From Bdellovibrionales bacterium (lineage in GTDB: Bacteria > Bdellovibrionota > Bdellovibrionia > Bdellovibrionales > UBA1609): DNA of 64,000 nucleotides. The stretch is taken from the NCBI GenBank assembly GCA_020850475.1, contig JADZEO010000113.1:631-64630 (forward strand), given 5' to 3'. Shown one piece after another: positions 8,605-55,324 of the stretch; within the stretch, counting starts at the first letter, position 1; each line of letters opens with the position of its first letter. Position numbers and translations under genes: made by a program. The notes under the pieces were generated by a model. The model saw nothing but the letters and a program-made list of their open reading frames with translations. It was not told where the DNA came from and searched no databases.

Positions 8605-9890
8605 AAACCAGTCAGAAACAAAATCAAACGATTGCTCATTGGGTGACGCGCACCCTCGCCAGTCTTTGTATTTGCACCCTATTGGCCTGCCAAACCGAAG
8701 CCCCGCCCCTGGTGGCGCCTCCGACTCCGCCGCCGCCGCCTCCGCCACCCGAAGTTTATGTGGCCAACCAGGCGGTGGCTGAACCCAGCCAGAACAGTTT
8801 CACCCCAAAACTTGATATCTTGTTTGTCATTGATGATTCCGGCTCCATGGCTCCTCACCAACAGCGCCTGGCGGCCAACATTGCTCGCTTCGTAGAATCG
8901 TTTTCAGTTGAGGACTTTATTGATTTCCACATTGGGGTGGTTTCGACCTGGGACTCAGTTCGATACGGCAGTCTCGTGCCCGAATTTAATTCCAGCGGTG
9001 CTCGCAACTTCGACCCGATTGGCGAACTCAAGGTTCTCAAGGCACCGGCCCAAAGCCCCAGCCTGCTCGAGGGTAAGTCCGAGCGTTTTTTAAGCCGTTC
9101 GTCCTTTGCTGACCGCCGCGACTTTTTGGCCGTCCTCAAAGAAACTCTCCTGATTGGCTACCGCCAATACTGTTGCAGCGAAGCCAAACTCCGTGAGCTT
9201 CGGGCCGAGGCCAAAAAGGCCGGTCGCGAACCCAAGATCGAATACATGGGACCCGAGTTTGAAGAACTTTTTAGCCCCGTGGTCGCGGCTCTCGGTGCAC
9301 CCGAACGCCTCAGCGGCCCTAACCGAGGATTTTTTCGTCCCGGCTCGCAATTGGTTTTGGTGTTCATGACCGATGCCGACGACGGCTCGCCCACCATCTC
9401 GGTCAATTGGTTTCACGAGTATTTACTTGATCTCACGCGCGATCGCTCCGGCGCCAACTTATCGACCTACGGGATCATTCACCCCAGCAAACAGGCCAGC
9501 AGTCCCGCCTGCCCCAAAGACCCCGCCGGCACCGCCGCCAAAGTGGAAGACTTTTTGGCCAAAACCAAGGGTAAGGTCTTTAACATTTGCTCCCAAGACT
9601 ATGGCAATGAACTGGCCAAAATGGGTCGCGAAATCCGCAAAAAAACTCTCGAAAAGTTCACCGTGTACCTCAACCGGATCCCCGAGGAGGGTTCTTTGGT
9701 GGTTCGCTACGGTAACTTGGAACTCAAAGAAGGCGAAGTCCCAGGTTGGATCAAGAACTCGGCGCAAAAAAAGGTCACGGTTCTGGGCCTTGATCAACTG
9801 CCTCACCAGCCGGGGGCTAAAGTGGATATCAAGTTCACCAATGTCGACCCCAATCGCCCCGATCGCAGCCACCGCATCGGCGGACAATGA
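8601..9890 (+). CDS. vWA-domain lipoprotein (CglB/CglD-like adhesin candidate)
   Basis: The ATG at 8601 overlaps the previous stop. It has a lipobox LLAC, a poly-Pro linker, the MIDAS motif DILFVIDDSGSM and a downstream LVFMTDADD. Confidence 0.75.
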   Translation: MKTSQKQNQTIAHWVTRTLASLCICTLLACQTEAPPLVAPPTPPPPPPPPEVYVANQAVAEPSQNSFTPKLDILFVIDDSGSMAPHQQRLAANIARFVESFSVEDFIDFHIGVVSTWDSVRYGSLVPEFNSSGARNFDPIGELKVLKAPAQSPSLLEGKSERFLSRSSFADRRDFLAVLKETLLIGYRQYCCSEAKLRELRAEAKKAGREPKIEYMGPEFEELFSPVVAALGAPERLSGPNRGFFRPGSQLVLVFMTDADDGSPTISVNWFHEYLLDLTRDRSGANLSTYGIIHPSKQASSPACPKDPAGTAAKVEDFLAKTKGKVFNICSQDYGNELAKMGREIRKKTLEKFTVYLNRIPEEGSLVVRYGNLELKEGEVPGWIKNSAQKKVTVLGLDQLPHQPGAKVDIKFTNVDPNRPDRSHRIGGQ

Positions 9891-10043
9891 CGTGAAATTC
9901 TTCCGCACCCGGGAAATCTTGTCTTTGTGGTGCGGACGAACTTTCTGCAATTAATAGAATCTCGTCCCTCAGACTCCTCCGATCATGGCAATAACTTTAC
10001 TGAAATAGGGGTATTTGACCATTTTCCTTTACGGAGGCTTTCC

Positions 10044-10442
10044 ATGACCAAACTCGCTATCGCCCTCATGGGCTTATTGTTTGCTGCCACTTCTCAGGCA
10101 ACCGTTGCTCGCACCGTTCTGACTTGTCACCAGAAAACTATGCGCCCAGGCGCTCCCGTGTACAGCCTGCAGGTAGCTCAAGGTGAAGTTGCCGACACTT
10201 GGCTCTTAAAAGAGCGCACCGCTAACCCGAACGCCCGCCCGGTGAGTATTGTGTTGGGTGGCCAGATTGCGTTTGTTGACCACGCCGACGGCACCTTCAT
10301 CTTTACCGCGAATGATGGTCGTTCCGGCTACACTCACTTTTACGTCAACAAGGCCAAGAAAAAGGCTCTCATCGACATTAACTTGTTCATGAAGCTGAAC
10401 ACCAGTGGTCCCATCACCGACTACGTTTGCGAATTGAACTAA
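10044..10442 (+). CDS. Small secreted hypothetical protein
   Basis: GGAGG RBS precedes the ATG at 10044. It has a signal peptide (MTKLAIALMGLLFAATSQA) and two Cys near the termini of the mature chain. Confidence 0.6.
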   Translation: MTKLAIALMGLLFAATSQATVARTVLTCHQKTMRPGAPVYSLQVAQGEVADTWLLKERTANPNARPVSIVLGGQIAFVDHADGTFIFTANDGRSGYTHFYVNKAKKKALIDINLFMKLNTSGPITDYVCELN

Positions 10443-41578: not shown

Positions 41579-42523
41579 CTACTTTCTGTTCTCTAGCGAC
41601 TTTCTGAGAATCTGAAACTTCCCATCCCCATCTTCGCAATACATCGAGTGAATCTTGCCTTTGAATTGTCGAATCTGGTCGACTTCGCGTTTCACTTCTT
41701 CGGCACTTCCATTGTTCGGATTCAGACAACTCGCCGATAGAGCATACACCAAATGATTCTTGCGCCCTGGTACCACCATCGTCGTCGAAGTCCGGCTGGA
41801 ATATGCGTTGTCCGCATAGCCACAAGAGGCTTTCCCTTGCACCTCAGTTAGCAAAATCGTGCCGTCGTCCATTCGACTCGAAGAATTGTATGCCATGCTT
41901 ACTCTCTCACCGGTCAACGGCGAGGTCATAATCTGTACGGTCCAAAAGGGATTTCCATTGGCCGGATCACTCGCGCCCGTCACCGCCCAGTTGGCCAAAT
42001 ATTCGAGCCGTTCTTGCTCTTGTCGTGTCGTCGGCACTGGACTTTGAACACAATTACTAGGATTCACAAGGCGCGCGGCAAAGTCGGCGAACATGGTGTT
42101 ATCGTGAGGCAACATATCAGAGATTGTACTGCGCCGAGCGGCCTCCTCGGCACTGATGCCGTCGGTGAGAATCATCCAGCGGCGCAATATGCAAAACTCG
42201 GCTTGCCCGTTACCCTTTGGCACATCTTTAAACTCGTGGATGCAAAGTGGACCAATTTCAGTGGGCACCCGCGCTGATTTCATTTGCCGAGTGGAATTCC
42301 AATAGGCCAGTCGAACACCAGCTAACTCTTCGGCAAAAAAATCTGGGGCTAAGGCCGGACGTAGGTTTTTTGCCCCCAAAGACTTTTCAATTGATTTCAT
42401 GAAAGGCTCAAGGTGAGTTCCGCCTTCTGCCGCATGGCCGGTCGGGCCCGTTACCAACAGCGCCGTGACCAGCGCCAATCCGCAGGAAATCCCCCAAGAA
42501 CTCGATTTAGATAAATAATTCAT
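41579..42523 (-). CDS. Secreted hypothetical protein (6 Cys in mature chain)
   Basis: GGAG RBS and a signal peptide ending GHA-A; no motif recognised. Confidence 0.6.
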   Translation of the reverse strand: MNYLSKSSSWGISCGLALVTALLVTGPTGHAAEGGTHLEPFMKSIEKSLGAKNLRPALAPDFFAEELAGVRLAYWNSTRQMKSARVPTEIGPLCIHEFKDVPKGNGQAEFCILRRWMILTDGISAEEAARRSTISDMLPHDNTMFADFAARLVNPSNCVQSPVPTTRQEQERLEYLANWAVTGASDPANGNPFWTVQIMTSPLTGERVSMAYNSSSRMDDGTILLTEVQGKASCGYADNAYSSRTSTTMVVPGRKNHLVYALSASCLNPNNGSAEEVKREVDQIRQFKGKIHSMYCEDGDGKFQILRKSLENRK

Positions 42524-42765: not shown

Positions 42766-45700
42766 CTACTGGGCGGGGGTGGGGGCGAAGGCGGGGCAGG
42801 AAGAATTCTGCAGGTAGCAGGACTCCGTGCGCCGGTGAAATCGTTTTAGCGACACTTCAAAGTCGGCCAAAATGTTAGGCGTGAGCCAAGGATCGGAGAT
42901 CGATTCCCGCACACTGATGTCGATGCGTGGCTGGTCTTCGGCGGGTAACTTTCGATACTCGTCAAAACGACGCTGCAAAGCCGCTTTAAACACGCCCAGG
43001 GACTGTTGCTCCCACTGAATCCAAGCCGTAATGTTGCGATCCAAACCGCGATCCAAGTCTGCATTAAATGGGATCAAGAGCTTTCCGCGGATGGCGTTGG
43101 ATCTCGAGGTGTAATACTCCTCGCCTAAATTAATAAAGCCATCGCGCTTGGGCATTACCGCCCTGGCCATGCCCACGGCGGCAGGATCAATGAGCTCAGG
43201 ATCGCGCAGGTGTTTCATGAGGTCGTAGGTGTAGCCTAACAGCGGTTCAGTCATGAGTCGCGCGGGCAAATCAAACAATCCCCATGTATCGCGAATCCGA
43301 TGGCGGATGAGACTGTAAGACACAAAGCGATTCATAAAATAAAGTGGCTCAAACTTTTCCTTCATCCGCACCTGTCCAAAGAGCATGCGTTCGACCGGGC
43401 TAATTCGCATTATTTTCATTAAGTCGAATTGTTCGTCGATCAGCTCTTCGGCCTTAATGGCAAATCGTTGATCGATAATGCCAGGCTCAAGGCGAAACAA
43501 ACTGGTCAAGCTCACCTGTCGAGCTTCCCAACGAATCACGCGTCCCGTGGGATAAGAAAACCAAACCAAGTAAGGGTCTTTGCCTGCAAACAGCAGCTTC
43601 ATTGCCTCAGCGACAAACTCATCTTCGGTCTTGGTATAGGGTATTGAATGACCCCGCGACTCTTTAATGACCCCAACGTCCAGATCCAGCGAATCGCCCA
43701 TTTCGACCCGAACATGCGGCGCAATGGGCGCAACTTGACCCGCTTCAGTCGTTAGGCCTACACCGAGGTAGCGGGCCATGCGAATCCACAAGTCAATTTG
43801 GTTATATCGATAACCGTCGCCATCGATTTGGTCATGCCCCGCAAAGTTGTCAGGCAAGCCCTTTAAGACATACTTCTCCTTGATCGCCGCTACTTCTTCG
43901 GGCTTGAGATTCCCCTGGCGAAGTTTCGTCATATCACGGTAGACCTGCCGGAGATAAGCTTGCTCCGTCTCCACCATCTTTTGCTGAACTTCGTAGTCCC
44001 GGAGCATCGATTTGGCAAAACAACGACCGATTTCTTGATGGCGAGTCAAGGCCTCTTCGACATAAGACTTACGCAACTGGCGGATTTCCTGAAGAAGGTC
44101 GTCGGTCTTAGTCGTCTTCTTCGCGATGTCAGCGTCGTTCAGTTGGTGAGCGCGCTTCAGGTAACTCACGTAGGAGGTCTTCATCGCCTCGGCCATTCGC
44201 ACAAACTGAGCCATGTCCACACGAACTTTTTCCACCGACTCAGCAAACTCACCATCAATGTAATTCAAACCCTGAGTCATTTCGGTGAGCCCGCCCGGAC
44301 TGGAGGCCGAGCGGCTACTCAGGTCTGAAATGTTCGTAAAAGCCGTTTCAATCGTCGCCCCATAATAGGGTGACTGCCGGACTTCACGCAGGTAGTAGCT
44401 CCACACTTCGGGTCGGTGGCCGTTGAATTCAGAGCACATCCGTTTCCATGTCTGGTAAATGGGGCTTTGGTTAAAACGCAAGGTCCGCTGGTGCATGTTA
44501 TCGCGAATGAATTTAACTTGATTTTCGCTCATCCGGCGAACGGCGTCGGCAATAAAAAAGTCCGGGTCGATGCCCATCACTCCGAAAAGGTTGGTGCGCA
44601 CGGCAAAGTCAAAGGCATAAAAGAGTTCGATCACATTCAAGGGAACTTCGTCGTCCGAGTACTGAAACAATGGCGGAATTTCTCCCCGGTACAGGAGAGT
44701 CATCAAGAGGGCCGAATCAAAGGCTCGGCTCGAAAAAGGAAAACGCATTTCAAACTTTTTTTGCGACAGAATATGAAACAAAATCATCATGTGAGGATAA
44801 ACGGCCGAGTACTTCACCGTCTTTTCCAAGTTATTGAAGGCTGAACGGACTTCTTTCGTCATTTCGTCATCGCCCACGGGAGTGCGCAGGGCCAGAACCG
44901 CAAACTTCTGCAATGGTTCAAAGCGGGAGCGCAACTCACCCCACACTTGCTTAACCACCGCACTTTTGCGCAAGGCATGCCACAACAATCCATCAGTTGC
45001 GACATTGGACTCAAACAGCTCGTCCTTGGCCAATTGGGTCGAGCGAAACAGAGCGAAGATAAACTGAATTCGTGCGTAGTCCATAATCATCGCCTTCAGT
45101 CGCTCTCGCTCCCGTCGGGTGCCAAAAAAGATCTGAGCCCCTTGATCCGCGGTTAGCTCACCATAAAAAACCCGATCAACTAAAAAGAAATACTCATCAC
45201 GGCCATCGACGTACTTCACTCCGACGGCTTGCGGATAAAAAAGTTTTTGTTCGCGCAGCCGTCGCTGGCGATCAGAAAAACTCCCGGCCACCGTCTGAGA
45301 ATCGGTGATCATCCGGGCCACCTGAGGATTGATGGCTCCCTGGGGATCGTAGATCAAGTGGGTCTTGGCCATCATCGCAAACAGCGCGTTACGGGAACTC
45401 TCACTCAGTTTGTCGCCTTCCCCAAAAATAAAGGTCCACGCTTTCAGCTGCTCGAGGAACTTTCGCTCTTCTGCGGCTGGCAGGTCTGCCTTCTTCAAAC
45501 TCAAAATGACGGTTTCCACCACTGACGACAAGAGCGCCTTGGCCTCGGGAGTTTGGGCCTGTTTTTTTCCTTCTTCGAATCGCAGAACGAACATTTCAAG
45601 TAATTCACGATCAAAGGCTTCATTTTTTAAGTGCAAAACAAAATAGAGGCGTCGATAGAATTCGGCCGCGGCAGGCGCATTCTTGGCCGCCAATTTCATA

Positions 45701-46167
45701 ATCTGCGCCGAACTCGGAACCAGTCCAAAATAGGCCAGCCCCGGACAGCTGTCCGCTATCTTCTCGCAGTCCAGACTCACGGCGCGGACATACCTTTCAA
45801 GGTAGGGCAAAGTTGCTTTGGCGCGCTCGCCACCCTGCTGCCACTCACGCTGCAAAGCTTGGTTAAAAACGGTCAATTCCTCGCGCACGGTCCGCACGGT
45901 CAAAGATTCCTGGGCCCGCACTCGGGCGGGACTTAAAACAATTTCTGATAGGGGACGCAAAATCTCGCGCTCCGGTTGAGTCGACTGGGAGGCTTGTTGC
46001 TGAAGGGCGCGAACCTCAGGTGTCACCACCTCGGTGAGGTCGGGACGAGTCGCGGAGTCCTGGACCGTCGGCCGCTGGTCGGCGGCATGCTGGTGAATGG
46101 GCTTACCCTTTTCCGTGCAGGAGAAGAGTGAGGCCGCAATCATAAAAATTCCCGCTATCCGTCGCAT
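42766..46167 (-). CDS. Very large alpha-helical lipoprotein (1133 aa), paralog of 47077-50682
   Basis: Lipobox SLFSC; shares motifs with the 1201-aa protein; no known domain recognised. Confidence 0.75.
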   Translation of the reverse strand: MRRIAGIFMIAASLFSCTEKGKPIHQHAADQRPTVQDSATRPDLTEVVTPEVRALQQQASQSTQPEREILRPLSEIVLSPARVRAQESLTVRTVREELTVFNQALQREWQQGGERAKATLPYLERYVRAVSLDCEKIADSCPGLAYFGLVPSSAQIMKLAAKNAPAAAEFYRRLYFVLHLKNEAFDRELLEMFVLRFEEGKKQAQTPEAKALLSSVVETVILSLKKADLPAAEERKFLEQLKAWTFIFGEGDKLSESSRNALFAMMAKTHLIYDPQGAINPQVARMITDSQTVAGSFSDRQRRLREQKLFYPQAVGVKYVDGRDEYFFLVDRVFYGELTADQGAQIFFGTRRERERLKAMIMDYARIQFIFALFRSTQLAKDELFESNVATDGLLWHALRKSAVVKQVWGELRSRFEPLQKFAVLALRTPVGDDEMTKEVRSAFNNLEKTVKYSAVYPHMMILFHILSQKKFEMRFPFSSRAFDSALLMTLLYRGEIPPLFQYSDDEVPLNVIELFYAFDFAVRTNLFGVMGIDPDFFIADAVRRMSENQVKFIRDNMHQRTLRFNQSPIYQTWKRMCSEFNGHRPEVWSYYLREVRQSPYYGATIETAFTNISDLSSRSASSPGGLTEMTQGLNYIDGEFAESVEKVRVDMAQFVRMAEAMKTSYVSYLKRAHQLNDADIAKKTTKTDDLLQEIRQLRKSYVEEALTRHQEIGRCFAKSMLRDYEVQQKMVETEQAYLRQVYRDMTKLRQGNLKPEEVAAIKEKYVLKGLPDNFAGHDQIDGDGYRYNQIDLWIRMARYLGVGLTTEAGQVAPIAPHVRVEMGDSLDLDVGVIKESRGHSIPYTKTEDEFVAEAMKLLFAGKDPYLVWFSYPTGRVIRWEARQVSLTSLFRLEPGIIDQRFAIKAEELIDEQFDLMKIMRISPVERMLFGQVRMKEKFEPLYFMNRFVSYSLIRHRIRDTWGLFDLPARLMTEPLLGYTYDLMKHLRDPELIDPAAVGMARAVMPKRDGFINLGEEYYTSRSNAIRGKLLIPFNADLDRGLDRNITAWIQWEQQSLGVFKAALQRRFDEYRKLPAEDQPRIDISVRESISDPWLTPNILADFEVSLKRFHRRTESCYLQNSSCPAFAPTPAQ

Positions 46168-46176
46168 TTCACTTCC

Positions 46177-47055
46177 TCAAAAAGTATAAGATGCTGTTAA
46201 GCGCACCAATCGCCGATACTGATCAAGATACCAGAAGTCGACGATGCCTTCGTCTGTAAAGCCGCCATTTTCATAGGTCAATGCCGCTGACCAATCACCC
46301 CAGCTGTAGGAAACTCCGTACTTGTTAAGATGAGAGTATCCGACATAGTCATCCAAATAGCGGGTGGCCTTAATCACAAAGGTGTAGGCCAAGCGCAGCT
46401 CTTTGTAGAACTTAAAGGTGTTACTAAACGCATAGGTGTAAAAGTAATTCGGGTTCGCCGTTTTGTCGGCACTGTACTCAAAGGTATTTAACATCCCGGA
46501 AACCGAAATCATGTGACCCATCATGTAACCGATGTTCGAAAAAGCCAATCCCACCCCGGTTCCTGCACTCAAAATTCCTTTGTAGCCCTCGCGCCGACTG
46601 GCTTCGTCCAGCAGCGCCTCACCGCCGGCAAAGGCTTTCCACGAACTCATTCCCCAAAACATCTGTTTGTAAGTCACCGTGGCCCCAAGGCTGGGGCTCA
46701 GGGTCTCATCATAGGATTGTTTTTGATCCTTATAGATTTGGCCACCGACGGTATTGGCCCCAACCGAAAGACTTCCTGAGACATTCCATTCGGGAGTCAA
46801 TTCGTAAGACAATCCTCCGCTCACCGCGTGAGTGTAGGCGCGGGGCGTGCGGTTGTCTGCATAGTCGGTGGACACTCCATAGCTCACAGTGGCCGAGAGA
46901 GGATTTTCCTCCTCGCCCTTCTTCACGCGAGTGGAATGAGGGGGCTTAAGCTCCGGAGGTCGGGCCAAAGCCCCGACCGGCACCAAAAGCGCCGCCAGCA
47001 AAAGGGCAGCACCCCTTCGCGGTGAGATCAGCTTGTTAAATCCACGTCTCTTCAC
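46177..47055 (-). CDS. Outer-membrane beta-barrel protein
   Basis: Signal peptide, Tyr/Ser/Gly-rich alternating strands and a C-terminal BAM-type signature VRLTASYTF. Confidence 0.7.
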   Translation of the reverse strand: MKRRGFNKLISPRRGAALLLAALLVPVGALARPPELKPPHSTRVKKGEEENPLSATVSYGVSTDYADNRTPRAYTHAVSGGLSYELTPEWNVSGSLSVGANTVGGQIYKDQKQSYDETLSPSLGATVTYKQMFWGMSSWKAFAGGEALLDEASRREGYKGILSAGTGVGLAFSNIGYMMGHMISVSGMLNTFEYSADKTANPNYFYTYAFSNTFKFYKELRLAYTFVIKATRYLDDYVGYSHLNKYGVSYSWGDWSAALTYENGGFTDEGIVDFWYLDQYRRLVRLTASYTF

Positions 47056-47076
47056 AATTGCGCCTTATTCACTTTC

Positions 47077-50000
47077 TCATCGTCCACTTGGAGGGCGAGT
47101 GCCGTAGAAGTTGCCTGTGCGTTGAACAAAATTATCCCAGCGGATGCGCAAATCTTCGATGGTTTGCCGGTCGACCATAGGAGGAACACCCGATTCCAGC
47201 CAGTACACCGGTTGTCCATCTTGTAGATAAAATGGCAATTTCAATCGAGGGCTCAAATCTTCAACGCGCTTGGTGCCGTCTTCGGCTTCTTTCATCGTCA
47301 CAAACAACTGGTTGATGCGGTTCAAAACGCGGTGAGCACGACTCCCATAACGCTGCCGAATTGCTTCTTTCACTTCAGGCCAAGGTTCAAACAGGAACAC
47401 ACCAAGATTGTTAATAGTCTGGGCGAACTCCAAGGCTTCCTGCATCGGGCCGGCCTGATCCAGTTTGATCTTAGCATCGGACACCGTGCTCTTCATCAAA
47501 CTGAAGAACAAGGGCTGCCGGGTGTAGGAGTCCTTCTCAAACAGAAGTTCTTCGAAGTAGGCCTTGCCCTTTTTACCATCGACTCCAAACTCGCGGGCGT
47601 TCTGGACGTCAAATTCATCTAAGGACAAGCTCGCCACGGCCCGAATGTAGGCGTCAATTAAGTCTCGAGCCGAAACTTCTAAAACCTCTGATTCACAAGG
47701 TTGAGTCCGGCAGTCCTCTTTGGGAACGCGCACCGGGCCCATCAAAAAGTACTCGCGCAAGGTGGCCAGATAGGCGGATAGGTCGGTTTCGGAGGTCACT
47801 TGCCCGTGCCACTGGACAAAGGAGTTGGTCTTGCCATTGAGCAAGGTCATGCCTTGTTTGATGAACTCCTCTTTGCTGTCACGGAGGTAGACTTCGGCAT
47901 CCTGCGCGGTTTCCACGATGGGATCGCGCTCCAATCCCGGAGGCGAAAACACACTGACGCGACGTTGCCGTTGCAAGCGCGCGAGATCTTGCCCATACAC
48001 GGTCTTTTCGCGGTCTGTCGGCTGCATAAAGATGTCCGCCTCAACCCGTGCCTTCATCCGCATCAAGAGGTCAAACTTCGACATTCGATAAGTGCGTCCA
48101 TCTAAACGGTCAAAGCGATAGCCACTGCCCTCTTTGCGAAAGTAGCCCGTATTGATCTCGTTGACCTTCTGGCCTAAGGCCGCCTCATCTTGAATCTTAC
48201 TGAGGGGCTCCATCAAATCATAGATCTTGCCAAGATGTGCGCGTTCTTCTTCGTAGAGGCGATTCATGCGTCGCTGCTCAATTTCCTTAAGATCCATCAA
48301 GCAATCGAAGTACCGCTTGTGGTGGCGAATGTAGAGCTTGGCCAGCGACCGTTTGAGATCCTCAAGAGTGCCCAAGTGAGCCCGGACCGTTTTGAGGTCG
48401 GGGTGAGCATCGCCTTTGGCCTTAATCTGGCCGGTGCGCAAGAGGTCCGCCTCGATGATATCGACCATCGCATGCACATAAGTGATGCGATCGTCGATCT
48501 CATTGCGAATCATCTCTGCCGCGGTTGAGGATTGCCCCAACAAATTACCCAACTCTAAGTTGACGCTATTGGCGCCCGCACCACTATAGGTGTAGCGATC
48601 AAGCTCTAAGAGACTAATTTGCACCTTTGGCGGCAAACCGGCGCCGGGACGGAAGGTTTCATAAGCGCACAAGGTATCCACGTTGGCAAATCCCGGATGG
48701 CCAATGGTCGCACGTTCATACTCCAGGATCTTGTCTCCCAATTGACGAATGTTTTCGTCCAAATACTTGGTGAAGATCAGGTCAAAGAATTTACTTCGGT
48801 TGGTTCCTTCGCCCTTGTCATCTTTGGCGACGAAGGTTTGTAGCGTATTGGTGCTCAACATGTAGTGGAGAGCATAAAGGATCATTTCTCGACTCAGTAA
48901 GACCGGATCATTACCAAAGCGAAACCATACGCTCTGAATTCCACCGTCAAAAAAGACATCTAAAATAGTATCCGCGGGAATTTCAAAGGCCGCTCCCCAC
49001 CAAGTGCGGACGGTAATCTTGCCCTTCATTTTGGCCAAATAGTACGTCATCACCATCATGTTTGGGTAAACCGAGAGATAGTGGACGTTACGATTGACTG
49101 ACTTTAAGAGCCGCGTGGTCTCGTTGTACTCTTCTGACAAGAGGTTGCGCCCCTTAAAGTAACTACCTAAGAACTTATCGAGCATCTCGATGCGGTTTTG
49201 AATCTTGAGCCAACGCCCAGAGATATCGCGCGACTTGAGGATGGCCTCTTGAAAGATCTCGTCACTGCCAATCGAATCGGAGTGATAGATCGAACTCATA
49301 AAGCGATTGGTCTCAACAATCATGTAGGCCAAATACACCTTGACGTAGGTCTGGATAATCGCCGGCAACTGTTTGAGAGCGCGCTCTTGGTTGGTGTTGT
49401 CGAGAACCATTTTAACTTCAGAAGATTCCAGATGCTCGCGGAACAATCGATCAATAATAAAGAAGTACTCGTTAAAAAACTCAGGATTGCCGCCGTTTTT
49501 GCGACGGCCCTCGTCTTGCTCGAGCTTCTTAAGAACGTCTTCAATTCGCAGATTCTTAAACACCTGCTCATTGCCGTCCTTTTTGATGTCGCGGATAATT
49601 TGACTAAACGAGAGACCAAAATCATCACCCTTTTCCTGAGCCTCAGCGATGGCAACTTTAACCGAGTCGTTGAGCTTGGTGCGTGCCGCGTCTTCATAGA
49701 GGCAACACTGAGCTGCCATCTCGAACATAATCCGTGTTCCATAGCGAAAGAGATCCGCCTGTTTGTTGGAGTAAACCCAAGGATTAAAATTTTCGACAAA
49801 GGCCCTAAACTCAGGATCCGAAAAACTCTTGGGCTTGTACTGCGCAATCAGGGTCTCAAAAATACCCCCATGCACCTCGCTCAGGTAACCCGTCATCAGG
49901 CTGGTGGGCTCCGCCCGTCCCCGTCCGCCCGCTTGGGGCTGACGTCGCCAATAATCCATCAAAAACGCATAGAGCCGAGAATATTTTAAATACGCAAAGG

Positions 50001-50682
50001 CATAGTCGTCGTCCTTGGTTCGATTGGCCTTGCTGGCTCGATGAGCCATGGCCAATAAGCGATAACGATCCTCGACGAGAGTACGGCAGGTTTCACTCGT
50101 CTCAACACAGCTTCGTGGCGACTGAGACTTTTTGAGTTCTGCCTCAATTGCGCTGTCACTGTCACCGGCGATTAAAACCAGAATCGGCGCAGTCCGATTG
50201 TCCTGAAAGACTTCTTCGGCCATGCAATCGCGTCGCAAATCTCGGCTACAGCCAGAAAACAAAGTGTTCACATAGTCACGCTTGAGCTTGGCCAAATCTT
50301 GAGCACTCACATAAGCTGGCTTCTCTCGTAAAATCGTCAGCAAAGCATGGTTGAAGACTGTGACCATTTGACTGAGGCGCGTGGTCCGATAAGCCGGGTT
50401 TTCAGTGTAATTGGCGTTCAAAACAATTCGCGAAAGGGGCTTCACGATCTCAGTCCACATTCCGGCCTTTGACTTCTCCGGATGACGCAGGATTTGGTAG
50501 GCCCGATCAATATCAAAGCTATTAAACTCCTGCGAAGACGCCGCCACCTCCGCCGGGGCCGCCGTGGGCGTCCACTCCCGTTTGGGCTCATGCTCATAGC
50601 GCGGCTTCGCTTTTGGCGAACAGCTCTGAAGAGCCAAGAAGGAGATCAGGGTCGCAATAACGAGTAAAGTGTATTTCTTCAT
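47077..50682 (-). CDS. Very large alpha-helical lipoprotein (1201 aa), paralog of 42766-46167
   Basis: Lipobox LQSC and GGAG RBS; 10 nt downstream of the metalloprotease stop. Confidence 0.75.
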   Translation of the reverse strand: MKKYTLLVIATLISFLALQSCSPKAKPRYEHEPKREWTPTAAPAEVAASSQEFNSFDIDRAYQILRHPEKSKAGMWTEIVKPLSRIVLNANYTENPAYRTTRLSQMVTVFNHALLTILREKPAYVSAQDLAKLKRDYVNTLFSGCSRDLRRDCMAEEVFQDNRTAPILVLIAGDSDSAIEAELKKSQSPRSCVETSETCRTLVEDRYRLLAMAHRASKANRTKDDDYAFAYLKYSRLYAFLMDYWRRQPQAGGRGRAEPTSLMTGYLSEVHGGIFETLIAQYKPKSFSDPEFRAFVENFNPWVYSNKQADLFRYGTRIMFEMAAQCCLYEDAARTKLNDSVKVAIAEAQEKGDDFGLSFSQIIRDIKKDGNEQVFKNLRIEDVLKKLEQDEGRRKNGGNPEFFNEYFFIIDRLFREHLESSEVKMVLDNTNQERALKQLPAIIQTYVKVYLAYMIVETNRFMSSIYHSDSIGSDEIFQEAILKSRDISGRWLKIQNRIEMLDKFLGSYFKGRNLLSEEYNETTRLLKSVNRNVHYLSVYPNMMVMTYYLAKMKGKITVRTWWGAAFEIPADTILDVFFDGGIQSVWFRFGNDPVLLSREMILYALHYMLSTNTLQTFVAKDDKGEGTNRSKFFDLIFTKYLDENIRQLGDKILEYERATIGHPGFANVDTLCAYETFRPGAGLPPKVQISLLELDRYTYSGAGANSVNLELGNLLGQSSTAAEMIRNEIDDRITYVHAMVDIIEADLLRTGQIKAKGDAHPDLKTVRAHLGTLEDLKRSLAKLYIRHHKRYFDCLMDLKEIEQRRMNRLYEEERAHLGKIYDLMEPLSKIQDEAALGQKVNEINTGYFRKEGSGYRFDRLDGRTYRMSKFDLLMRMKARVEADIFMQPTDREKTVYGQDLARLQRQRRVSVFSPPGLERDPIVETAQDAEVYLRDSKEEFIKQGMTLLNGKTNSFVQWHGQVTSETDLSAYLATLREYFLMGPVRVPKEDCRTQPCESEVLEVSARDLIDAYIRAVASLSLDEFDVQNAREFGVDGKKGKAYFEELLFEKDSYTRQPLFFSLMKSTVSDAKIKLDQAGPMQEALEFAQTINNLGVFLFEPWPEVKEAIRQRYGSRAHRVLNRINQLFVTMKEAEDGTKRVEDLSPRLKLPFYLQDGQPVYWLESGVPPMVDRQTIEDLRIRWDNFVQRTGNFYGTRPPSGR

Positions 50683-50692
50683 TGAGCGCTCC

Positions 50693-53600
50693 CTATTTTA
50701 CCAAGAACTCTTCAGCAATTCGCAGCCAGTATCCATTGACGACAGCTGCCGCCGATAGAATCTGACCCGTTCCTCGTGTTGATTCATCACAAATCGCCTG
50801 CATCGTCCGGCCCGAGAAGTTGGGCGGAATCTTGCCGGAGACTTTGGTCTCGTACTTGCCAAACTCGGTACGGATCGAATCGTAGAACTGGCCAAGTTTC
50901 TCTTTGTTGGTTTCTTCCGCAAGTCCAGGCGGAATGTAAAAGCCTTTAAAGTCTGGGTTGCCGTTGTCAAAGTAGCTCGCAAGCCCGCTGCCGTTAAAAC
51001 CATCGACACAAGTATCGGTGATCGAGTCATGTAGCTCCCGAAGTGAAAACTTAACACTGTCTTCAAGCAATAGGTCGCCCACTTCAAAGTCATAATCCAC
51101 TTTATAGGCAATGACATAGGAACTCGTCCCGCTCCAAAACTTCATTTTGGTGATCGGATAGAGGAACATCCCGTTGGCGCGTACAAAAATGTTACCTTGA
51201 GGCAAAATAAAGACGTCGCGCGCCGTTGAACTCTTGTCGGTAAAAAAGTCGTAGACCGTGGCCGTGAACTTTTTGTAGTGGTCGGCCGCTGTGCCCGAGT
51301 TGGCATCGGGCTGGGTGGCGGAAATAATCACTGCCACCAGACTTAAGTTGAATTCGTTCTGCTGATTGAGCGTCTCATTGTAAGCTCGAGGGAGCTTGGC
51401 CGAGTCGTTACTGTAGTAACGTTGCCAGGGCACCATCCAACCTGTCGCCAGCACCGAGCGTCCCATTGAGGTCATGTTGTCGCGTCCGGTTGCCGCAAAA
51501 CGCAAGTTGTATTTAACCGCATCGGCTACCAGCTTGGTGTACTCGCGTGGATAAAGCGTACGGTAAAGGAACTTGTTCTCGTGGTAATCATAAAAAGGAT
51601 TCCAAGCAAACCCACCCCAGAACAGCAGGTAAGGATTGGCCGTGGTCAAGGTAAAGAGCGAAGACATCTTGAGAGGCAAGTTACTTAACTGATACCAGGA
51701 ACCAAAAATGTGGCCCCAGTTGCGACTTGAGTCACCGACCAAATAGCCTCCGCTGATATAGCGAGCGCTGTGATCGATTTTGGAAAAGTCTCCTTCTGGG
51801 AGATTGACAAAGAATTTAAATTCACGAAGCGCCAGGTTATTGGCGCGACACAAATCCACCATCTCTGGATCCTTAAAAATCTCTCGCAGAGTGCTGCTCG
51901 TCACTTGGCTGCCGTCGGTGGGATTGTCCTTTTGGCAAGCTTGGGCAAATTCAAACAGCGCATCTTGATCCATGCGCAGTTGGTCCCATAAAGCCTTGAG
52001 CTGCTCATCGCTTCGCAACTTTCGGCGCATTTCATCGTAAAACAGTCTCACCCGCGAGAAAGTACTAAGAGAAACCCACCACAAGCGGTTTTCCGCTGAC
52101 CACTCATCCGCCCCTCCACCTACAAGAGAGTAGAGACTGGCCACTAAGTTGTCGGAGATTCCCTCAAAATACGAAGCGACGATATCCTCGGCCTTACTGC
52201 CGCGGTCCCAGCGATTGCAGAATGGATCTGCGGCAAGGGAAGCTTCATAGTCGTTACACGCCGGGAAATAGGCCACCGGCAAACGGCTTTCGACCGTGCC
52301 ATCGGCTTTTTTGACCTCGGTGAAGCTGCGGATTTTGCCGTTCGCCGGAAGTGCGGCAAAGCGGAACTCGTCCTTAGCCTGATGATAGAGCGGGTATTCA
52401 CCTTTATATAGATATCGCAAAACCAACTCGTCGTGGATCATGGGGTGGAGGTCTTGCGCCGGCAAAATCATTTCGGTGCGGCCGTTGCGATATCCCATCA
52501 CCGACGACATATTAGTAAAGCCGGCTTTGCGAGTGGCCCTTTCACTGAGGGCTTTGACGTATCGAGACGGCACGGTCCCCTCTTTGGGCACAATGTTCTC
52601 TTTAAACTGGTGGCCCATTCCTAACATGTGACCCACTTCGTGCAGAGCCAAGTCTTTTACTACTGACTCGAGCATCTCCGGATAGCTCCGAACCGAACGG
52701 GCTTCGCTTTGGTTCCACGCGCCCACCATGTTTTCGATCGTACGTCCTTCTTCGACAAAGAAGGCTGATGCCGTGGGAGTGAAGTGAGCAAGTAAGTCTG
52801 CGCGCTTGGCGCGATTACTTTCACCAATGATGCCCTTGATTTTCTTACGGTCATCCGTTCGGAAGAAGTTCTCGATCGACTGAGCCTGGCTCTGGCGCTG
52901 ATACCCGAACTGGTTCAAAATACTCTTCTGCGAAAAGTACTGGGCATTGCCCTCAATTTCTGCCTGGGCTGTTTTAACCGCATCGGCAGCAATCCGACCC
53001 AAGTCGCTTCGGTTTTCCTGCATTTTTGCTAAATGAAATTTCAGCCCTTCAATTTCGCGCTGCAAGTTGATCTTTTCTTCATTCGAGCGTGGGGCCAGGC
53101 GACTCAAGCGCGTGATCTCTTGATTAATTTGCTCCAAGTGATTTTGCGAGAGTCCGCTCACCATGGTGGGTTTGACCGCCAAATTAACCGCCTGCAATCC
53201 CGGAATGTCCGGCAGGCGTTGCGGAATCGGCGGAGTGCCCATCCCTAGAGGAAACTGTTTGGTCAAATTCTCCACTTCCATCGACGACGATGAAGAAGTG
53301 GGCGCATAAGCATTAATGTACTTTTCGAGCATTCCACCGTAGAGAGTGACTCCACCCCAAATGATTTTACCGTTTCGGACGTCGGCATGAGCCATGCCGA
53401 TTCCAAGCGGAGAATACATTGAAATGGCCTTGTCACTGATCCAAGTGATCGAGGGATAGCGAAGGTCAAAGGGGTGTTTAAAGTTGGCCACCACTGGTTC
53501 AAAGACCTTGAAGCCCTTAGCCACGGCACCCACATCCTGAAAAGTCTTGTTCCACTCTTCAACGACGCCGATGATCGTCTTCTCGTGCTCCTTGGGAACA

Positions 53601-54442
53601 CCATTGAGATAGAGCTTCTGCGTTTTGCGCACATCCCAGTGAGCCACATACAAATCGGGCTCGACACCTTCGATTCGTTTACCCATGACGTGCAGAATGT
53701 TGAGGTACTTGGCATTTTCTTGATGGTACGGAACTCGTTTAAAGGAGGGGTCGTGATCAAACTTAAGGAAATTAACTCGGATCTTGGCCTGCATCTCGCC
53801 GCCCCACCAACCCGCACTCACGGTGTTGATGGAAAAACCTAAGAAATTATTCTTGTGATCCCATTCGATGTCTTCAGTCGAGGTCACCCGGTGAGGGCCA
53901 TCCCACAAAAAGTCGTGGATCTCAATTCCCGAGAGATTCAAGCTGATCATCGGGCGTGCAGTCCAGTGCGAGCGACTGGTGTTTTCGATCCACTCGTTGG
54001 TTTCGCGGCCGTAAGAGTCTTTGTTTTTCTCAAAGTAAAAGTGTTTGGTGATGGGGATTTTCAGCGCCTCTTGCCAGCGCGAACGATCATCAGGAAAACT
54101 GGGATGAATCACTTTTCCGACCAAGTAGTTCTCGGTGACCTCGAACTCAATGTTACAGTGCATGGCTTCGTTCACCATGAGGGTGATGTACTTGCCCACC
54201 CAACCGCGACCCATCTCTGGAGCCCATGCACAGAGGAAGGTTTTGGGCTTACCACTGGCATCAACGAAAAAGCTTTTCTCGATGCGCTCTTCGGAAGGGG
54301 GCGGAGTTTCTGCCGCACGCTCTTTAAACATTTTGCCGTTAAGTAATCCGCGACCGGAGCAACTACTGACCACCAGAAGCAGCACCAGGTTCACCCACAA
54401 TTTGAGAATTCCAACTGGTCTTTGAGAAGTGCGGTATGACAC
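50693..54442 (-). CDS. Zinc-dependent metalloprotease lipoprotein (metzincin, EcxA/DUF4953-like)
   Basis: AAGGAG RBS precedes the GTG at 54442. It has a lipobox VSSC, HEVGHMLGMGH (52610-52642) and a Met-turn SSVMGY. Confidence 0.85.
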   Translation of the reverse strand: MSYRTSQRPVGILKLWVNLVLLLVVSSCSGRGLLNGKMFKERAAETPPPSEERIEKSFFVDASGKPKTFLCAWAPEMGRGWVGKYITLMVNEAMHCNIEFEVTENYLVGKVIHPSFPDDRSRWQEALKIPITKHFYFEKNKDSYGRETNEWIENTSRSHWTARPMISLNLSGIEIHDFLWDGPHRVTSTEDIEWDHKNNFLGFSINTVSAGWWGGEMQAKIRVNFLKFDHDPSFKRVPYHQENAKYLNILHVMGKRIEGVEPDLYVAHWDVRKTQKLYLNGVPKEHEKTIIGVVEEWNKTFQDVGAVAKGFKVFEPVVANFKHPFDLRYPSITWISDKAISMYSPLGIGMAHADVRNGKIIWGGVTLYGGMLEKYINAYAPTSSSSSMEVENLTKQFPLGMGTPPIPQRLPDIPGLQAVNLAVKPTMVSGLSQNHLEQINQEITRLSRLAPRSNEEKINLQREIEGLKFHLAKMQENRSDLGRIAADAVKTAQAEIEGNAQYFSQKSILNQFGYQRQSQAQSIENFFRTDDRKKIKGIIGESNRAKRADLLAHFTPTASAFFVEEGRTIENMVGAWNQSEARSVRSYPEMLESVVKDLALHEVGHMLGMGHQFKENIVPKEGTVPSRYVKALSERATRKAGFTNMSSVMGYRNGRTEMILPAQDLHPMIHDELVLRYLYKGEYPLYHQAKDEFRFAALPANGKIRSFTEVKKADGTVESRLPVAYFPACNDYEASLAADPFCNRWDRGSKAEDIVASYFEGISDNLVASLYSLVGGGADEWSAENRLWWVSLSTFSRVRLFYDEMRRKLRSDEQLKALWDQLRMDQDALFEFAQACQKDNPTDGSQVTSSTLREIFKDPEMVDLCRANNLALREFKFFVNLPEGDFSKIDHSARYISGGYLVGDSSRNWGHIFGSWYQLSNLPLKMSSLFTLTTANPYLLFWGGFAWNPFYDYHENKFLYRTLYPREYTKLVADAVKYNLRFAATGRDNMTSMGRSVLATGWMVPWQRYYSNDSAKLPRAYNETLNQQNEFNLSLVAVIISATQPDANSGTAADHYKKFTATVYDFFTDKSSTARDVFILPQGNIFVRANGMFLYPITKMKFWSGTSSYVIAYKVDYDFEVGDLLLEDSVKFSLRELHDSITDTCVDGFNGSGLASYFDNGNPDFKGFYIPPGLAEETNKEKLGQFYDSIRTEFGKYETKVSGKIPPNFSGRTMQAICDESTRGTGQILSAAAVVNGYWLRIAEEFLVK

Positions 54443-54788
54443 GTGAACTCCTTCCCCGAGGGGAGACAATCCAATTAATGAGCGGTAACTAGGCCACTTA
54501 ATGCACAGAATAAGCCACGCTACCCACCACTTGATGGCTAGTTAACTATTTGAATTTAAAGCGTTTTGAATTATTTATAGGTAGTATAAGAGAAATTGAT
54601 GGATTCGGCCTGATCAGGCCCTTTTCATTATGACCAAAAATGCGGGCCCAATTTTGTCGCTCGTCATCACAGAGTCGGCACAATCGATGCAATTTCAAGC
54701 CTGCAGTTGATGAACAACAAGCCAGGCCTGCGGTTAATTGCAGACCACCAAAGACTGGCGGAAATTATGTCCCACCATGGAGGTTAAA

Positions 54789-55277
54789 ATGTCCATTCTC
54801 ACTCGAAAAACACCGACACCATCACCAACAACTTCCGACCCTTTTTCCCAATTCCAAGAGGAGATGAATCGCCTGATGGAAAACTTCTGGGGCCGTAACC
54901 ATTGGCTGACTCTCCCCGAGTCTTCTTCGACTTTGGCGACCTGGGCTCCCAAGGTGGACGTGAGTGAAACCGAAAAGGAATACAAAGTTCGCGCTGAAAT
55001 TCCCGGCGTGGATCAAGATCATGTCGAAGTGAATTTTCAAGACAACACTTTATATTTAAAGGGCGAGAGAAAATTTCAGGAGGAAGAGAAGCAAGAAAAC
55101 TTCCACCGCATCGAGCGTAGCTATGGGCGCTTTCAGCGCACCATCCCCTTCGCGACTCGCATCAACGAGGAAAAAATCTCCGCTCATTTTGACCGCGGAA
55201 TCTTGACCGTGTCTTTGGCGAAGGCCGATGAGGTCGTCAAAGGATCACGCAAGATTAACGTCAGCACAAAGCAATAG
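54789..55277 (+). CDS. Small heat-shock protein (Hsp20/alpha-crystallin)
   Basis: GGAGG RBS, then WAPKVDVSETEKEY.VRAEIPGV, HRIERSYGRFQRTIPF and FDRGILTV. Confidence 0.95.
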   Translation: MSILTRKTPTPSPTTSDPFSQFQEEMNRLMENFWGRNHWLTLPESSSTLATWAPKVDVSETEKEYKVRAEIPGVDQDHVEVNFQDNTLYLKGERKFQEEEKQENFHRIERSYGRFQRTIPFATRINEEKISAHFDRGILTVSLAKADEVVKGSRKINVSTKQ

Positions 55278-55285
55278 TCCTGTCC

Positions 55286-55324
55286 GCCCTGCCCTCTTAA
55301 GACCTCAAGGGGGTGGGGCTTTTT
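55286..55324 (+). terminator. Intrinsic terminator after hsp20
   Basis: GCCCTGCCCTCT-loop-AGGGGGTGGGGC (with G-U pairs) followed by T5. Confidence 0.6.

What the first reader, a model, noticed from the sequence alone, without database searches (positions are those of the whole stretch)
42766..54442. Uncharacterised 11.7-kb outer-envelope operon: metzincin lipoprotein, two giant paralogous lipoproteins and a beta-barrel
Seen: four co-directional genes with gaps of 10, 21 and 9 nt, each with an SD. Three have lipoboxes (VSSC, LQSC, LFSC) and one has a barrel C-terminal signature (ASYTF). The first has an intact HEVGHMLGMGH plus Met-turn. About 3,900 residues are encoded, and only the protease motif is recognisable. 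Inference: a multi-subunit outer-membrane machine in which the barrel exports or anchors a protease and a heterodimeric helical scaffold, plausibly for prey attack, prey-protein digestion or peptide capture. I know no described system with this composition.
Basis: partly seen in the sequence, partly recalled or inferred. Interest (0 to 1): 0.8.

Follow-up and report, generated by a model that had tools for sequence, protein, structure and literature searches.

The report
Orphan outer-membrane zinc-protease lipoprotein cassette
An uncultured wastewater relative of the predatory bacterium Bdellovibrio carries a conserved, transcribed four-gene operon for a lipid-anchored zinc protease, two giant all-helical sister lipoproteins and a small outer-membrane barrel; it matches no described system and its function is only inferred.

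Summary
Four minus-strand genes lie 10, 21 and 9 nt apart:
- A: 1249 aa, lipobox VSSC, HEVGHMLGMGH plus a Met-turn.
- B: 1201 aa, lipobox LQSC.
- C: 292 aa, signal peptide, about 12 amphipathic strands, C-terminal ASYTF.
- D: 1133 aa, lipobox LFSC.

B and D are ancient paralogues (20% identity, E 2e-22). The order A-B-(C)-D is kept in every carrier examined. That covers 14 of 61 related genomes, 22 of 401 Bdellovibrionota genomes and 25 further public loci, all from uncultured bacteria. Wastewater metatranscriptome contigs span all three gene junctions.

AlphaFold2 models of A and B are confident (pLDDT 87). Neither matches a solved structure. A resembles only a 'zinc-dependent metalloprotease' of the DUF4953 type.

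New here: the same genome has three more modules in which a DUF4953 lipoprotein metzincin sits beside a C-family barrel (4 of 4). The barrel is therefore the protease's partner, and B and D are a lineage-specific addition. B and D also share a conserved His(-Glu) motif about 10 residues after the lipid cysteine, in a disordered tether.

Best reading (0.45): an outer-membrane, probably surface-facing, protease complex docked on a dedicated barrel. The complex, its location and its substrate are all untested.

The parts
50693..54442 (-). Gene A: 1249-aa lipoprotein metzincin. From the N-terminus it has a soluble beta-barrel domain, a split catalytic domain with a long helical-hairpin insert, and a C-terminal alpha/beta region of about 600 aa.
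   Evidence: ORF and start. 144 homologues, all 'hypothetical'. Invariant zinc motif and Met-turn. AF2 model pLDDT 87.5, pTM 0.84. Foldseek hit to a 'zinc-dependent metalloprotease' (E 9.6e-9). Orthologues pass the Pfam DUF4953 cut-off.
52610..52642 (-). Zinc-binding motif HEVGHMLGMGH (residues 601-611). The Met-turn SVMGY follows at residues 647-651 (52490-52504).
54359..54361 (-). Lipidation cysteine of A (Cys28, lipobox VSSC). It is followed by a conserved tether motif, (A/T)-E-T-P-x-P ... K-S-F-F.
47077..50682 (-). Gene B: 1201-aa lipoprotein, almost entirely alpha-helical, from a new family.
   Evidence: AF2 model pLDDT 87.4, pTM 0.75. Foldseek finds only generic alpha-solenoids at TM about 0.1. 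The family has 435 clusters at 50% identity among 1.84 billion.
50587..50592 (-). Conserved His31-Glu32 of B, 10-11 residues after the lipid Cys21 (50620-50622), in a low-confidence (disordered) tether.
   Evidence: H10 and E11 of mature B are at least 90% conserved. Listing of 26 B sequences. pLDDT is below 50 over model residues 1-14.
46177..47055 (-). Gene C: 292-aa outer-membrane beta-barrel with a signal peptide, about 12 amphipathic strands and a C-terminal ASYTF.
   Evidence: Weak generic OMP Pfam hits in 8 of 52 family members. No PDB relative by sequence profile.
42766..46167 (-). Gene D: 1133-aa lipoprotein, an ancient paralogue of B.
   Evidence: BLASTP B against D: E 2e-22, 20% identity over 723 aa. 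Columns shared by B and D: lipid Cys, tether His, two Cys pairs and a few structural residues.
46087..46089 (-). Conserved tether His27 of D, 10 residues after the lipid Cys17 (46117-46119).
54502..54517 (-). Possible sigma-54-type -24/-12 element TGGCTTATTCTGTGCA, 75 nt upstream of the start of A. This is tentative.
   Evidence: Only 4 of 22 loci have such an element (1.6 expected by shuffling), so support is weak.

Best explanation
The four genes are one operon for an outer-membrane-associated protease module of Bdellovibrionota.

Components:
- A is a catalytically intact, lipid-anchored metzincin, a far outlier of the DUF4953 'zinc-dependent metalloprotease' group.
- C is a barrel of about 12 strands. 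Its family always accompanies lipoprotein metzincins of this type, so it is the protease's dedicated membrane partner, either a docking site or a passage for the lipoprotein's N-terminal tether.
- B and D are ancient paralogues of a new lipoprotein family of about 1150 residues that is all-alpha and has conserved cysteine pairs. They have no catalytic signature and most likely act as a paired scaffold or adaptor that holds or gates the protease or its substrates.
- Short conserved motifs in the disordered tethers just after the lipid cysteines are the likely docking elements. In B and D the motif is His(-Glu) at about +10; in A it is E-T-P-x-P.

I place the assembly on the outer face of the outer membrane, where it would digest external (prey or environmental) protein.

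Shown: operon structure, co-conservation, conserved active site, lipoboxes, barrel features, fold class, and transcripts in situ.

Inferred: physical complex, orientation, substrate, and the role of the tether motifs.
For: - Tight spacing and coupling. Gaps here are 10, 21 and 9 nt. In relatives the gene ends overlap by 1-13 nt.
- Conserved order. A-B-C-D or A-B-D is kept in all 14 carrier genomes among 61 relatives, in 20 further distinct loci with C between B and D, and in 5 with B directly followed by D.
- Zinc motif and Met-turn are invariant in 69 sequences.
- Lipoboxes are conserved in the A, B and D families. B and D have two conserved Cys pairs, which fits an oxidising compartment.
- Barrel-metzincin pairing is 4 of 4 in this genome. 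It recurs in other MAGs.
- Tether motifs are conserved although the tether is predicted disordered.
- Metatranscriptome contigs span the A/B, B/C and C/D junctions.
- Established knowledge: gene-linked barrel-lipoprotein pairs such as Slam with its substrates, SusC/SusD, MtrB/MtrC and LptD/LptE mostly place the lipoprotein at the surface or inside the barrel.
Against: - There is no direct evidence of protein-protein contact.
- Orientation (surface or periplasm) is not indicated by the sequence.
- In one lineage three A-B-D cassettes lack an internal barrel. The nearest cassette-type barrel lies 70 kb away, so the barrel is not needed in cis.
- Distribution is patchy, in about 5% of sampled Bdellovibrionota genomes, so it is not a core predation function.
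- RNA-run contigs are shallow and could include residual DNA.
- No cultured carrier was found.
Confidence: 0.45

Rival explanations
1. C is a transient translocon rather than a stable anchor. It would be a small barrel that flips or threads the giant lipoproteins A, B and D to the cell surface by recognising their conserved tether motifs. This would be a functional analogue of Slam/T11SS built from unrelated parts.
For: - The tether motifs sit at a fixed distance from the lipid cysteine in B and D and are also conserved in A.
- Each metzincin lipoprotein module in this genome has its own barrel.
- In one MAG a single unlinked cassette-type barrel coexists with three A-B-D cassettes. That suits a shared catalyst better than a 1:1 anchor.
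Against: - C has no DUF560, TPR or Omp85 features.
- A 12-strand lumen cannot pass folded proteins of about 1200 residues, so export would have to be co-folding or depend on BAM.
- There are no experimental data.
Confidence: 0.2
2. The module faces the periplasm and serves envelope maintenance. A would be an outer-membrane-tethered periplasmic protease. B and D would be helical adaptor lipoproteins, as NlpI is for Prc or the TPR domain is for BepA. C would be a substrate, a regulator or a membrane landmark.
For: - By the E. coli +2 rule, lipoproteins with Ser or Thr at +2 (A: CS, B: CS, D: CT) default to the inner leaflet of the outer membrane (together with established knowledge).
- All-alpha solenoid lipoproteins are typical adaptors.
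- An S41 tail-specific protease gene lies next to one paralogous module.
Against: - Periplasm-facing lipoproteins do not normally need a dedicated, gene-linked barrel, yet the pairing here is 4 of 4.
- The cassette is patchily distributed, which is unlike a housekeeping envelope function.
Confidence: 0.2
3. There is no complex. The four are co-regulated but independently acting envelope proteins, kept adjacent by common regulation.
For: No interaction evidence exists. The barrel can be unlinked from the cassette.
Against: - Gene order is kept down to 22-40% identity across families of the order and into two other families of the phylum.
- Overlapping stop and start codons are typical of stoichiometric partners.
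- B and D always occur as a pair.
Confidence: 0.1

Closest known systems
DUF4953 / PF16313 'Met-zincin' proteins, annotated by NCBI as 'zinc-dependent metalloprotease'. From memory and earlier scan notes, InterPro calls the domain 'EcxA zinc-binding domain'.
   Same: - The HExxHxxGxxH zinc site and Met-turn are present.
- Orthologues of A (P0007, P0118, P0106) and the paralogous proteases next to barrels pass the Pfam cut-off.
- The A model matches a predicted 'zinc-dependent metalloprotease' structure at E 9.6e-9 over 411 columns.
   Different: - The window protein itself scores 16.2 bits against a cut-off of 24.2, and only profile positions 7-32 of 316 match.
- A is 1249 aa and has a helical hairpin of about 130 residues inserted in the catalytic domain, plus about 600 extra C-terminal residues.
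- No member of the family has a published function that I could find.
Slam / type 11 secretion: a DUF560 barrel with neighbouring surface-lipoprotein substrates
   Same: A dedicated outer-membrane barrel gene lies next to lipoprotein genes. Lipoprotein N-terminal regions may carry recognition information.
   Different: C has no DUF560 domain and no periplasmic TPR domain. It has about 12 strands rather than 14 and shows no sequence relation. The cargo here would be 4-5 times larger.
NlpI-Prc and BepA: helical-repeat lipoprotein or adaptor plus an envelope protease
   Same: A helical scaffold lipoprotein is associated with a protease at the outer membrane.
   Different: The protease classes are unrelated (S41, M48) and there is no dedicated barrel. 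B and D are about 4 times larger than NlpI and are not detectable TPR proteins.
Treponema denticola dentilisin (PrcB-PrcA-PrtP), an operon-encoded lipoprotein protease complex at the outer membrane
   Same: An operon encodes a lipidated protease together with accessory lipoproteins that form an outer-membrane complex. This comparison rests on knowledge, not on a test here.
   Different: Dentilisin has a subtilisin-type catalytic subunit, and there is no homology to A, B or D. Its barrel partner (Msp) is not in the operon.
SusCD / RagAB utilisomes
   Same: Surface lipoproteins sit on an outer-membrane barrel for capture and processing of macromolecules.
   Different: C has about 12 strands and no Plug or TonB-dependent receptor domains, so it cannot be a TonB-dependent importer.
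FapF-type 12-stranded secretion barrels (a lead from earlier scan notes on relatives)
   Same: The strand number is similar (about 12) and the barrel is small.
   Different: There is no sequence-profile match to any PDB chain.

Membership tests
Metzincin clan of zinc endopeptidases | Extended zinc motif HExxHxxGxxH/D | tested here: met
   HEVGHMLGMGH at residues 601-611. H, E, G, H, G and H are invariant in 69 sequences.
Metzincin clan of zinc endopeptidases | Conserved Met-turn downstream of the zinc site | tested here: met
   SVMGY at residues 647-651. M and Y are invariant and G is at least 90% conserved.
Metzincin clan of zinc endopeptidases | Metzincin catalytic fold (five-stranded sheet, active-site helix, C-terminal helix) | tested here: inconclusive
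   The AF2 model has strands 264-318 and the active-site helix 537-556, separated by a helical insert. Foldseek found no PDB hit at E <= 0.001. In the viral library it hit a zinc-dependent metalloprotease (E 9.6e-9) and an M10 domain (probability 0.93).
Pfam PF16313 (DUF4953, Met-zincin) | Score at or above the gathering threshold of 24.2 bits | tested here: not met
   The window protein scores 16.2 bits, and only over the zinc site. Orthologues score 26-31 bits and neighbouring paralogues 35-50 bits. A is therefore a divergent relative, not a formal member.
Bacterial lipoproteins (A, B, D) | Signal peptide ending in a lipobox with an invariant Cys | tested here: met
   VSS|C, LQS|C and LFS|C. 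The Cys is conserved in 96-100% of B and D sequences and in the A orthologues. Acylation itself cannot be tested here.
Outer-membrane beta-barrel proteins (C) | Signal peptide, an even number of amphipathic strands, C-terminal aromatic beta-signal | tested here: met
   The signal peptide ends at ALA|RP. Periodicity analysis plus manual reading gives about 12 strands. The terminal F is at least 90% conserved. Family members give weak OMP_b-brl, YaiO, Autotransporter and MipA hits.
Slam / T11SS | DUF560 14-stranded barrel with an N-terminal TPR domain | tested here: not met
   No DUF560 or TPR hit in C or in 52 family members at E <= 1.
SusCD-like / TonB-dependent systems | 22-stranded TonB-dependent receptor with a plug domain | tested here: not met
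   C has 292 aa and no Plug or TonB_dep_Rec hit. No such gene lies in the operon.
FapF-like secretion barrels | 12-stranded barrel with a plug helix and an N-terminal coiled coil | not tested
   There is no sequence-profile match to PDB.

The most novel reading that the evidence does not exclude
The C-family barrels may be a previously unrecognised class of dedicated lipoprotein-partner barrels. Each would recognise a short conserved motif in the disordered tether just after the lipid cysteine: His-Glu at +10/+11 in B and D, and E-T-P-x-P in A. The barrel would then thread or dock very large lipoproteins at the cell surface. In that case the A-B-C-D cassette is a new kind of surface protein machine, with a protease and a two-paralogue alpha-solenoid cage, specific to predatory Bdellovibrionota. 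It would be unrelated to Slam, to Bacteroidota lipoprotein export signals and to LptDE.
Probability: 0.25. Interest if true: 0.85.

Novelty: new variant of a known kind. Interest (0 to 1): 0.62.

Why it matters
- The cassette takes 11.7 kb here, and three smaller barrel-metzincin modules sit in the same 3.9-Mb genome. That is a large investment in envelope proteins that no database can name.
- B/D, C and the C-terminal half of A define families with confident predicted folds but no solved or described relatives.
- If the barrel is a dedicated partner for giant lipoproteins, that bears on an open question: how diderm bacteria outside Neisseria and Bacteroidota place lipoproteins on their surface.
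- If the complex acts on prey, it is a new candidate for the attack or feeding apparatus of predatory bacteria that are common in wastewater plants.
- The strict barrel-protease pairing gives a simple two-gene system to test first.

Tried and rejected
- Pfam and NCBIfam on all four proteins gave nothing over cut-off.
- PDB sequence-profile searches with alignments of A, B and C gave nothing meaningful.
- Foldseek against PDB: A hit only avidin-like or 8-strand barrels on its N-terminal domain, at E > 0.06. B hit only generic HEAT/ARM solenoids at TM about 0.1.
- hhalign of the A profile against the B profile showed they are unrelated.
- I asked whether the X703 and X801 lipoproteins of the paralogous modules are B/D relatives. 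An HMM search found no signal.
- I looked for a catalytic signature in B and D. None is shared; the DRLFR.H motif of B is not kept in D.
- A sigma-54 promoter conserved across loci is not significant: 4 of 22 loci against 1.6 expected.
- The downstream 314-aa secreted ORF (41579-42523) is not part of the module. It has no Pfam hit and different genes follow D in relatives.
- The flanking genes (HSP20, B12-radical SAM, AraC, nir genes) are unrelated.
- Literature searches on DUF4953, Bdellovibrio plus metzincin, Pseudobdellovibrionaceae, and surface lipoprotein plus barrel plus metalloprotease found no description of this system.
- A first crude strand-periodicity script failed. A second found 9 segments that resolve to about 12 strands only with manual reading.
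- No cultured carrier was found among the named cluster members.
Full report
**What is in the sequence.**
Four minus-strand ORFs fill 42766-54442:
- A: 54442..50693, 1249 aa from the GTG that follows GGAAGGAG.
- B: 50682..47077, 1201 aa.
- C: 47055..46177, 292 aa.
- D: 46167..42766, 1133 aa.

The gaps are 10, 21 and 9 nt. SD-like sequences precede A, B and D; the one before C is weak. A, B and D begin with signal peptides ending in the lipoboxes VSS|C28, LQS|C21 and LFS|C17. C has an ordinary signal peptide and ends in ASYTF. A carries HEVGHMLGMGH at residues 601-611 and SVMGY at 647-651. G+C content matches the surroundings.

**Recognisability.**
Pfam and NCBIfam give nothing above cut-off for any of the four. 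A has only zinc-site hits: DUF4953 at 16.2 bits against a cut-off of 24.2, plus M10 and reprolysin fragments. HMM profiles of the A, B and C families find no relative among 177,635 PDB sequences. All database homologues are 'hypothetical protein' from uncultured Bdellovibrionales or Pseudobdellovibrionaceae.

**Paralogy.**
B and D align over 723 residues at 20% identity, E 2e-22. A is unrelated to both. In a joint alignment of 26 B and 23 D sequences, only 14 columns are at least 80% conserved in both groups. These are the lipid Cys, a His about 10 residues later, two Cys pairs (B C145/C153 and C672/C794) and a few structural residues. There is no catalytic signature. A profile of B finds 435 clusters at 50% identity among 1.84 billion proteins. 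Apart from evident fragments, the best 150 listed are about 1050-1575 aa and match over most of the profile, so this is a small, monolithic family.

**Co-conservation.**
- Among 61 related genomes, B occurs in 14 and strong A matches in 16. Two of those 16 are fragmentary assemblies. C occurs in 13.
- In every carrier the hits lie in the order A-B-(C)-D on one strand.
- Identity falls from 79/74/77% for A/B/C in the same genus to about 40/29/24% in other families of the order. D is the most divergent.
- In an even sample of 401 Bdellovibrionota genomes, the B/D family is in 22 genomes (15 of 204 genera). Twenty are in the same order and 2 in other families. In 19 of the 22 two matches were found.
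- An HMM census of 34 public loci shows C between B and D in 20 distinct loci plus the window. B is followed directly by D in 5.
- Gene ends in relatives overlap by 1-13 nt.
- Flanking genes differ from locus to locus, so the unit is exactly these genes.

**Structure.**
- A: AlphaFold2 on residues 51-1249 with 69 sequences gives pLDDT 87.5 and pTM 0.84. The model has an N-terminal soluble beta-barrel domain and the metzincin sheet. A three-helix insert of about 90 residues follows, then the active-site helix with HEVGH and about 600 residues of further alpha/beta domains.
- A against PDB: Foldseek finds no hit at E <= 0.001.
- A against predicted viral structures: one clear match, a 1072-aa 'zinc-dependent metalloprotease' from a giant-virus metagenome bin (E 9.6e-9, 411 columns), and a weaker M10 domain match. 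With the Pfam hits of orthologues and paralogues, this places A as a far outlier of the DUF4953-type metzincins.
- B: mature B with 42 sequences gives pLDDT 87.4 and pTM 0.75. It is almost all helix with a few small hairpins. Foldseek returns only generic alpha-solenoids (Cand1, condensin, exportins) at TM about 0.1. That indicates a fold class, not a relative.
- C: shows about 12 amphipathic strands. Eight of 52 family members weakly hit the generic OMP_b-brl model.

**The barrel belongs with the protease.**
Public loci showed extra divergent pairs of a 276-322-aa barrel and a 1146-1553-aa DUF4953 lipoprotein next to the cassette. I therefore searched the window's own genome. It has three more DUF4953 metzincin lipoproteins, and each lies beside a C-family barrel:
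- contig C111: barrel (281 aa) then protease (1377 aa)
- contig C166: X703, then protease (1029 aa), then barrel (357 aa)
- contig C107: X801, then protease (1054 aa), then barrel (317 aa)

All three proteases carry HExxHxxGxxH and a lipobox. X703 and X801 are lipoproteins paralogous to each other (E 1e-58). They are not detectably related to B or D. The pairing of metzincin and barrel is thus 4 of 4 in this genome. The accessory lipoproteins vary between modules: none, X, or B plus D.

Conversely, one MAG has three A-B-D cassettes without an internal barrel. It encodes three C-family barrels elsewhere. One is of the cassette type and lies 70 kb from a cassette. At least one, and probably both, of the others lie next to DUF4953-like lipoprotein proteases.

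**Tether motifs.**
In B the consensus after the lipid Cys is C-x(8-10)-[HN]-E. In D it is C-x(8-10)-H-[E/D/...]. The His is at least 81% conserved in both families, although this stretch is predicted disordered, with pLDDT below 50. A orthologues share (A/T)-E-T-P-x-P and then K-S-F-F at the start of the first domain. Conserved linear motifs at a fixed distance from the membrane anchor suggest a binding partner at the membrane. The barrel is the obvious candidate, but this is inference.

**Expression and habitat.**
The stretch is present in about 20 wastewater, activated-sludge and bioreactor metagenomes. It is also in four wastewater metatranscriptome runs from one study. Contigs from those RNA runs span each junction:
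- B/C junction: 46699-47355, 46840-47261 and 46794-47214, with no mismatches.
- A/B junction: 50585-50942, 50560-51081 and 50333-50920, about 3-4% divergent, so from a sister strain.
- C/D junction: 45936-46196.

Pieces of up to 2 kb lie inside A, and almost nothing covers the intergenic region upstream of A. This fits one polycistronic transcript expressed in situ. Depth is low and residual DNA cannot be excluded.

**Mechanism.**
I commit, at 0.45, to an outer-membrane protease complex. A is the enzyme. C is its dedicated barrel partner, either a docking site or a passage for tethers. B and D form a paired helical scaffold or adaptor. The assembly probably faces outward. The outward orientation rests on what is known of gene-linked barrel-lipoprotein pairs (Slam with its substrates, SusCD, MtrB/C, LptD/E), which mostly put the lipoprotein at the surface or in the barrel.

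The rivals are:
- a transient Slam-like translocon role for C (0.2)
- a periplasm-facing maintenance protease with adaptor lipoproteins, like NlpI-Prc or BepA (0.2)
- co-regulated but independent proteins (0.1)

A role in predation is plausible from the lineage. It is untested, and the patchy distribution argues against a core role.

**Comparison and novelty.**
Only the catalytic core of A belongs to a known clan, the metzincins, for which both motif features are met. A itself fails the DUF4953 gathering threshold. C fails the defining features of Slam and of TonB-dependent receptors. The FapF-like fold suggested by earlier scan notes could not be tested here. B and D have no known relatives. 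I found no paper that describes the cassette or the simpler barrel-metzincin pair.

I rate it a new variant of a known kind: outer-membrane lipoprotein protease assemblies built around a catalogued but unstudied metzincin family. Three of the four parts are new protein families. There is a 0.25 chance that it represents a new lipoprotein-display principle.

Earlier notes of this scan report the same cassette in at least five other genomes with similar conclusions. They are not independent evidence.
- the 4-of-4 pairing in one genome
- the B/D-shared tether His and Cys pairs
- the unlinked barrel in the A-B-D lineage
- the structural link of A to 'zinc-dependent metalloprotease'
- the metatranscriptome support

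Noticed in passing
G000 contigs C111 (L047 1048-6039), C166 (L048 145-6432), C107 (L049 355-6936): The same genome has three further modules, each pairing a DUF4953 lipoprotein metzincin with a C-family barrel. Two of them also have an upstream 703- or 801-aa lipoprotein. These two are paralogues of each other (E 1e-58), have no Pfam hit and are unrelated to B or D. They form another orphan accessory family.
   Followed up: partly
window 54502-54517 (-): A sigma-54-like -24/-12 element, TGGCTTATTCTGTGCA, lies 75 nt upstream of the start of A. Similar elements sit 54-59 nt upstream in two other loci, but overall only 4 of 22 loci have one (1.6 expected by shuffling).
   Followed up: partly
window 41579-42523 (-): A 314-aa secreted protein with 7 cysteines and no Pfam hit lies 243 nt downstream of D on the same strand. 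It is represented in the RNA runs but is not conserved next to the cassette in relatives.
   Followed up: partly
window 54738-55277 (+): An HSP20 gene is divergent from the operon and is followed by a strong terminator hairpin at 55286-55319. In one metatranscriptome (X28) its contig depth is 40.9, against 2-6 for the operon.
   Followed up: no
L053 (G428:C11:221000-240000), 7519-10385 (-): In the MAG with three barrel-less A-B-D cassettes, a 404-aa cassette-type barrel stands alone. It is followed by a 506-aa lipoprotein (LLIVAC|GPG) of unknown family, about 70 kb from one cassette on the same contig.
   Followed up: partly
L047 6283-8277 (+): An S41 tail-specific protease gene lies divergently next to the barrel-metzincin pair on contig C111.
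   Followed up: no
window 47700-48200 and 50330-51100: Metatranscriptome contigs show two sequence types: one identical to the window and one 3-5% divergent, mostly at third codon positions. At least two strains carrying the cassette therefore coexist in the same plant.
   Followed up: no
cluster of P0110: A 75-aa fragment labelled Salmonella enterica (WP_426472232.1) clusters at 90% identity or more with a Bdellovibrionales A-family protein. It is almost certainly contamination in that assembly.
   Followed up: no
C family alignment A3/A4 (window C residues about 63-76 and 147-160): Two loops of the barrel carry conserved motifs: D-[LM]-x(4-6)-P-R-x-Y-x-H after strand 1, and P-[TS]-S-x-x-S-[QR]-x-E-G after strand 5. 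Both would lie on the same (extracellular or lumen) side if the termini are periplasmic.
   Followed up: no
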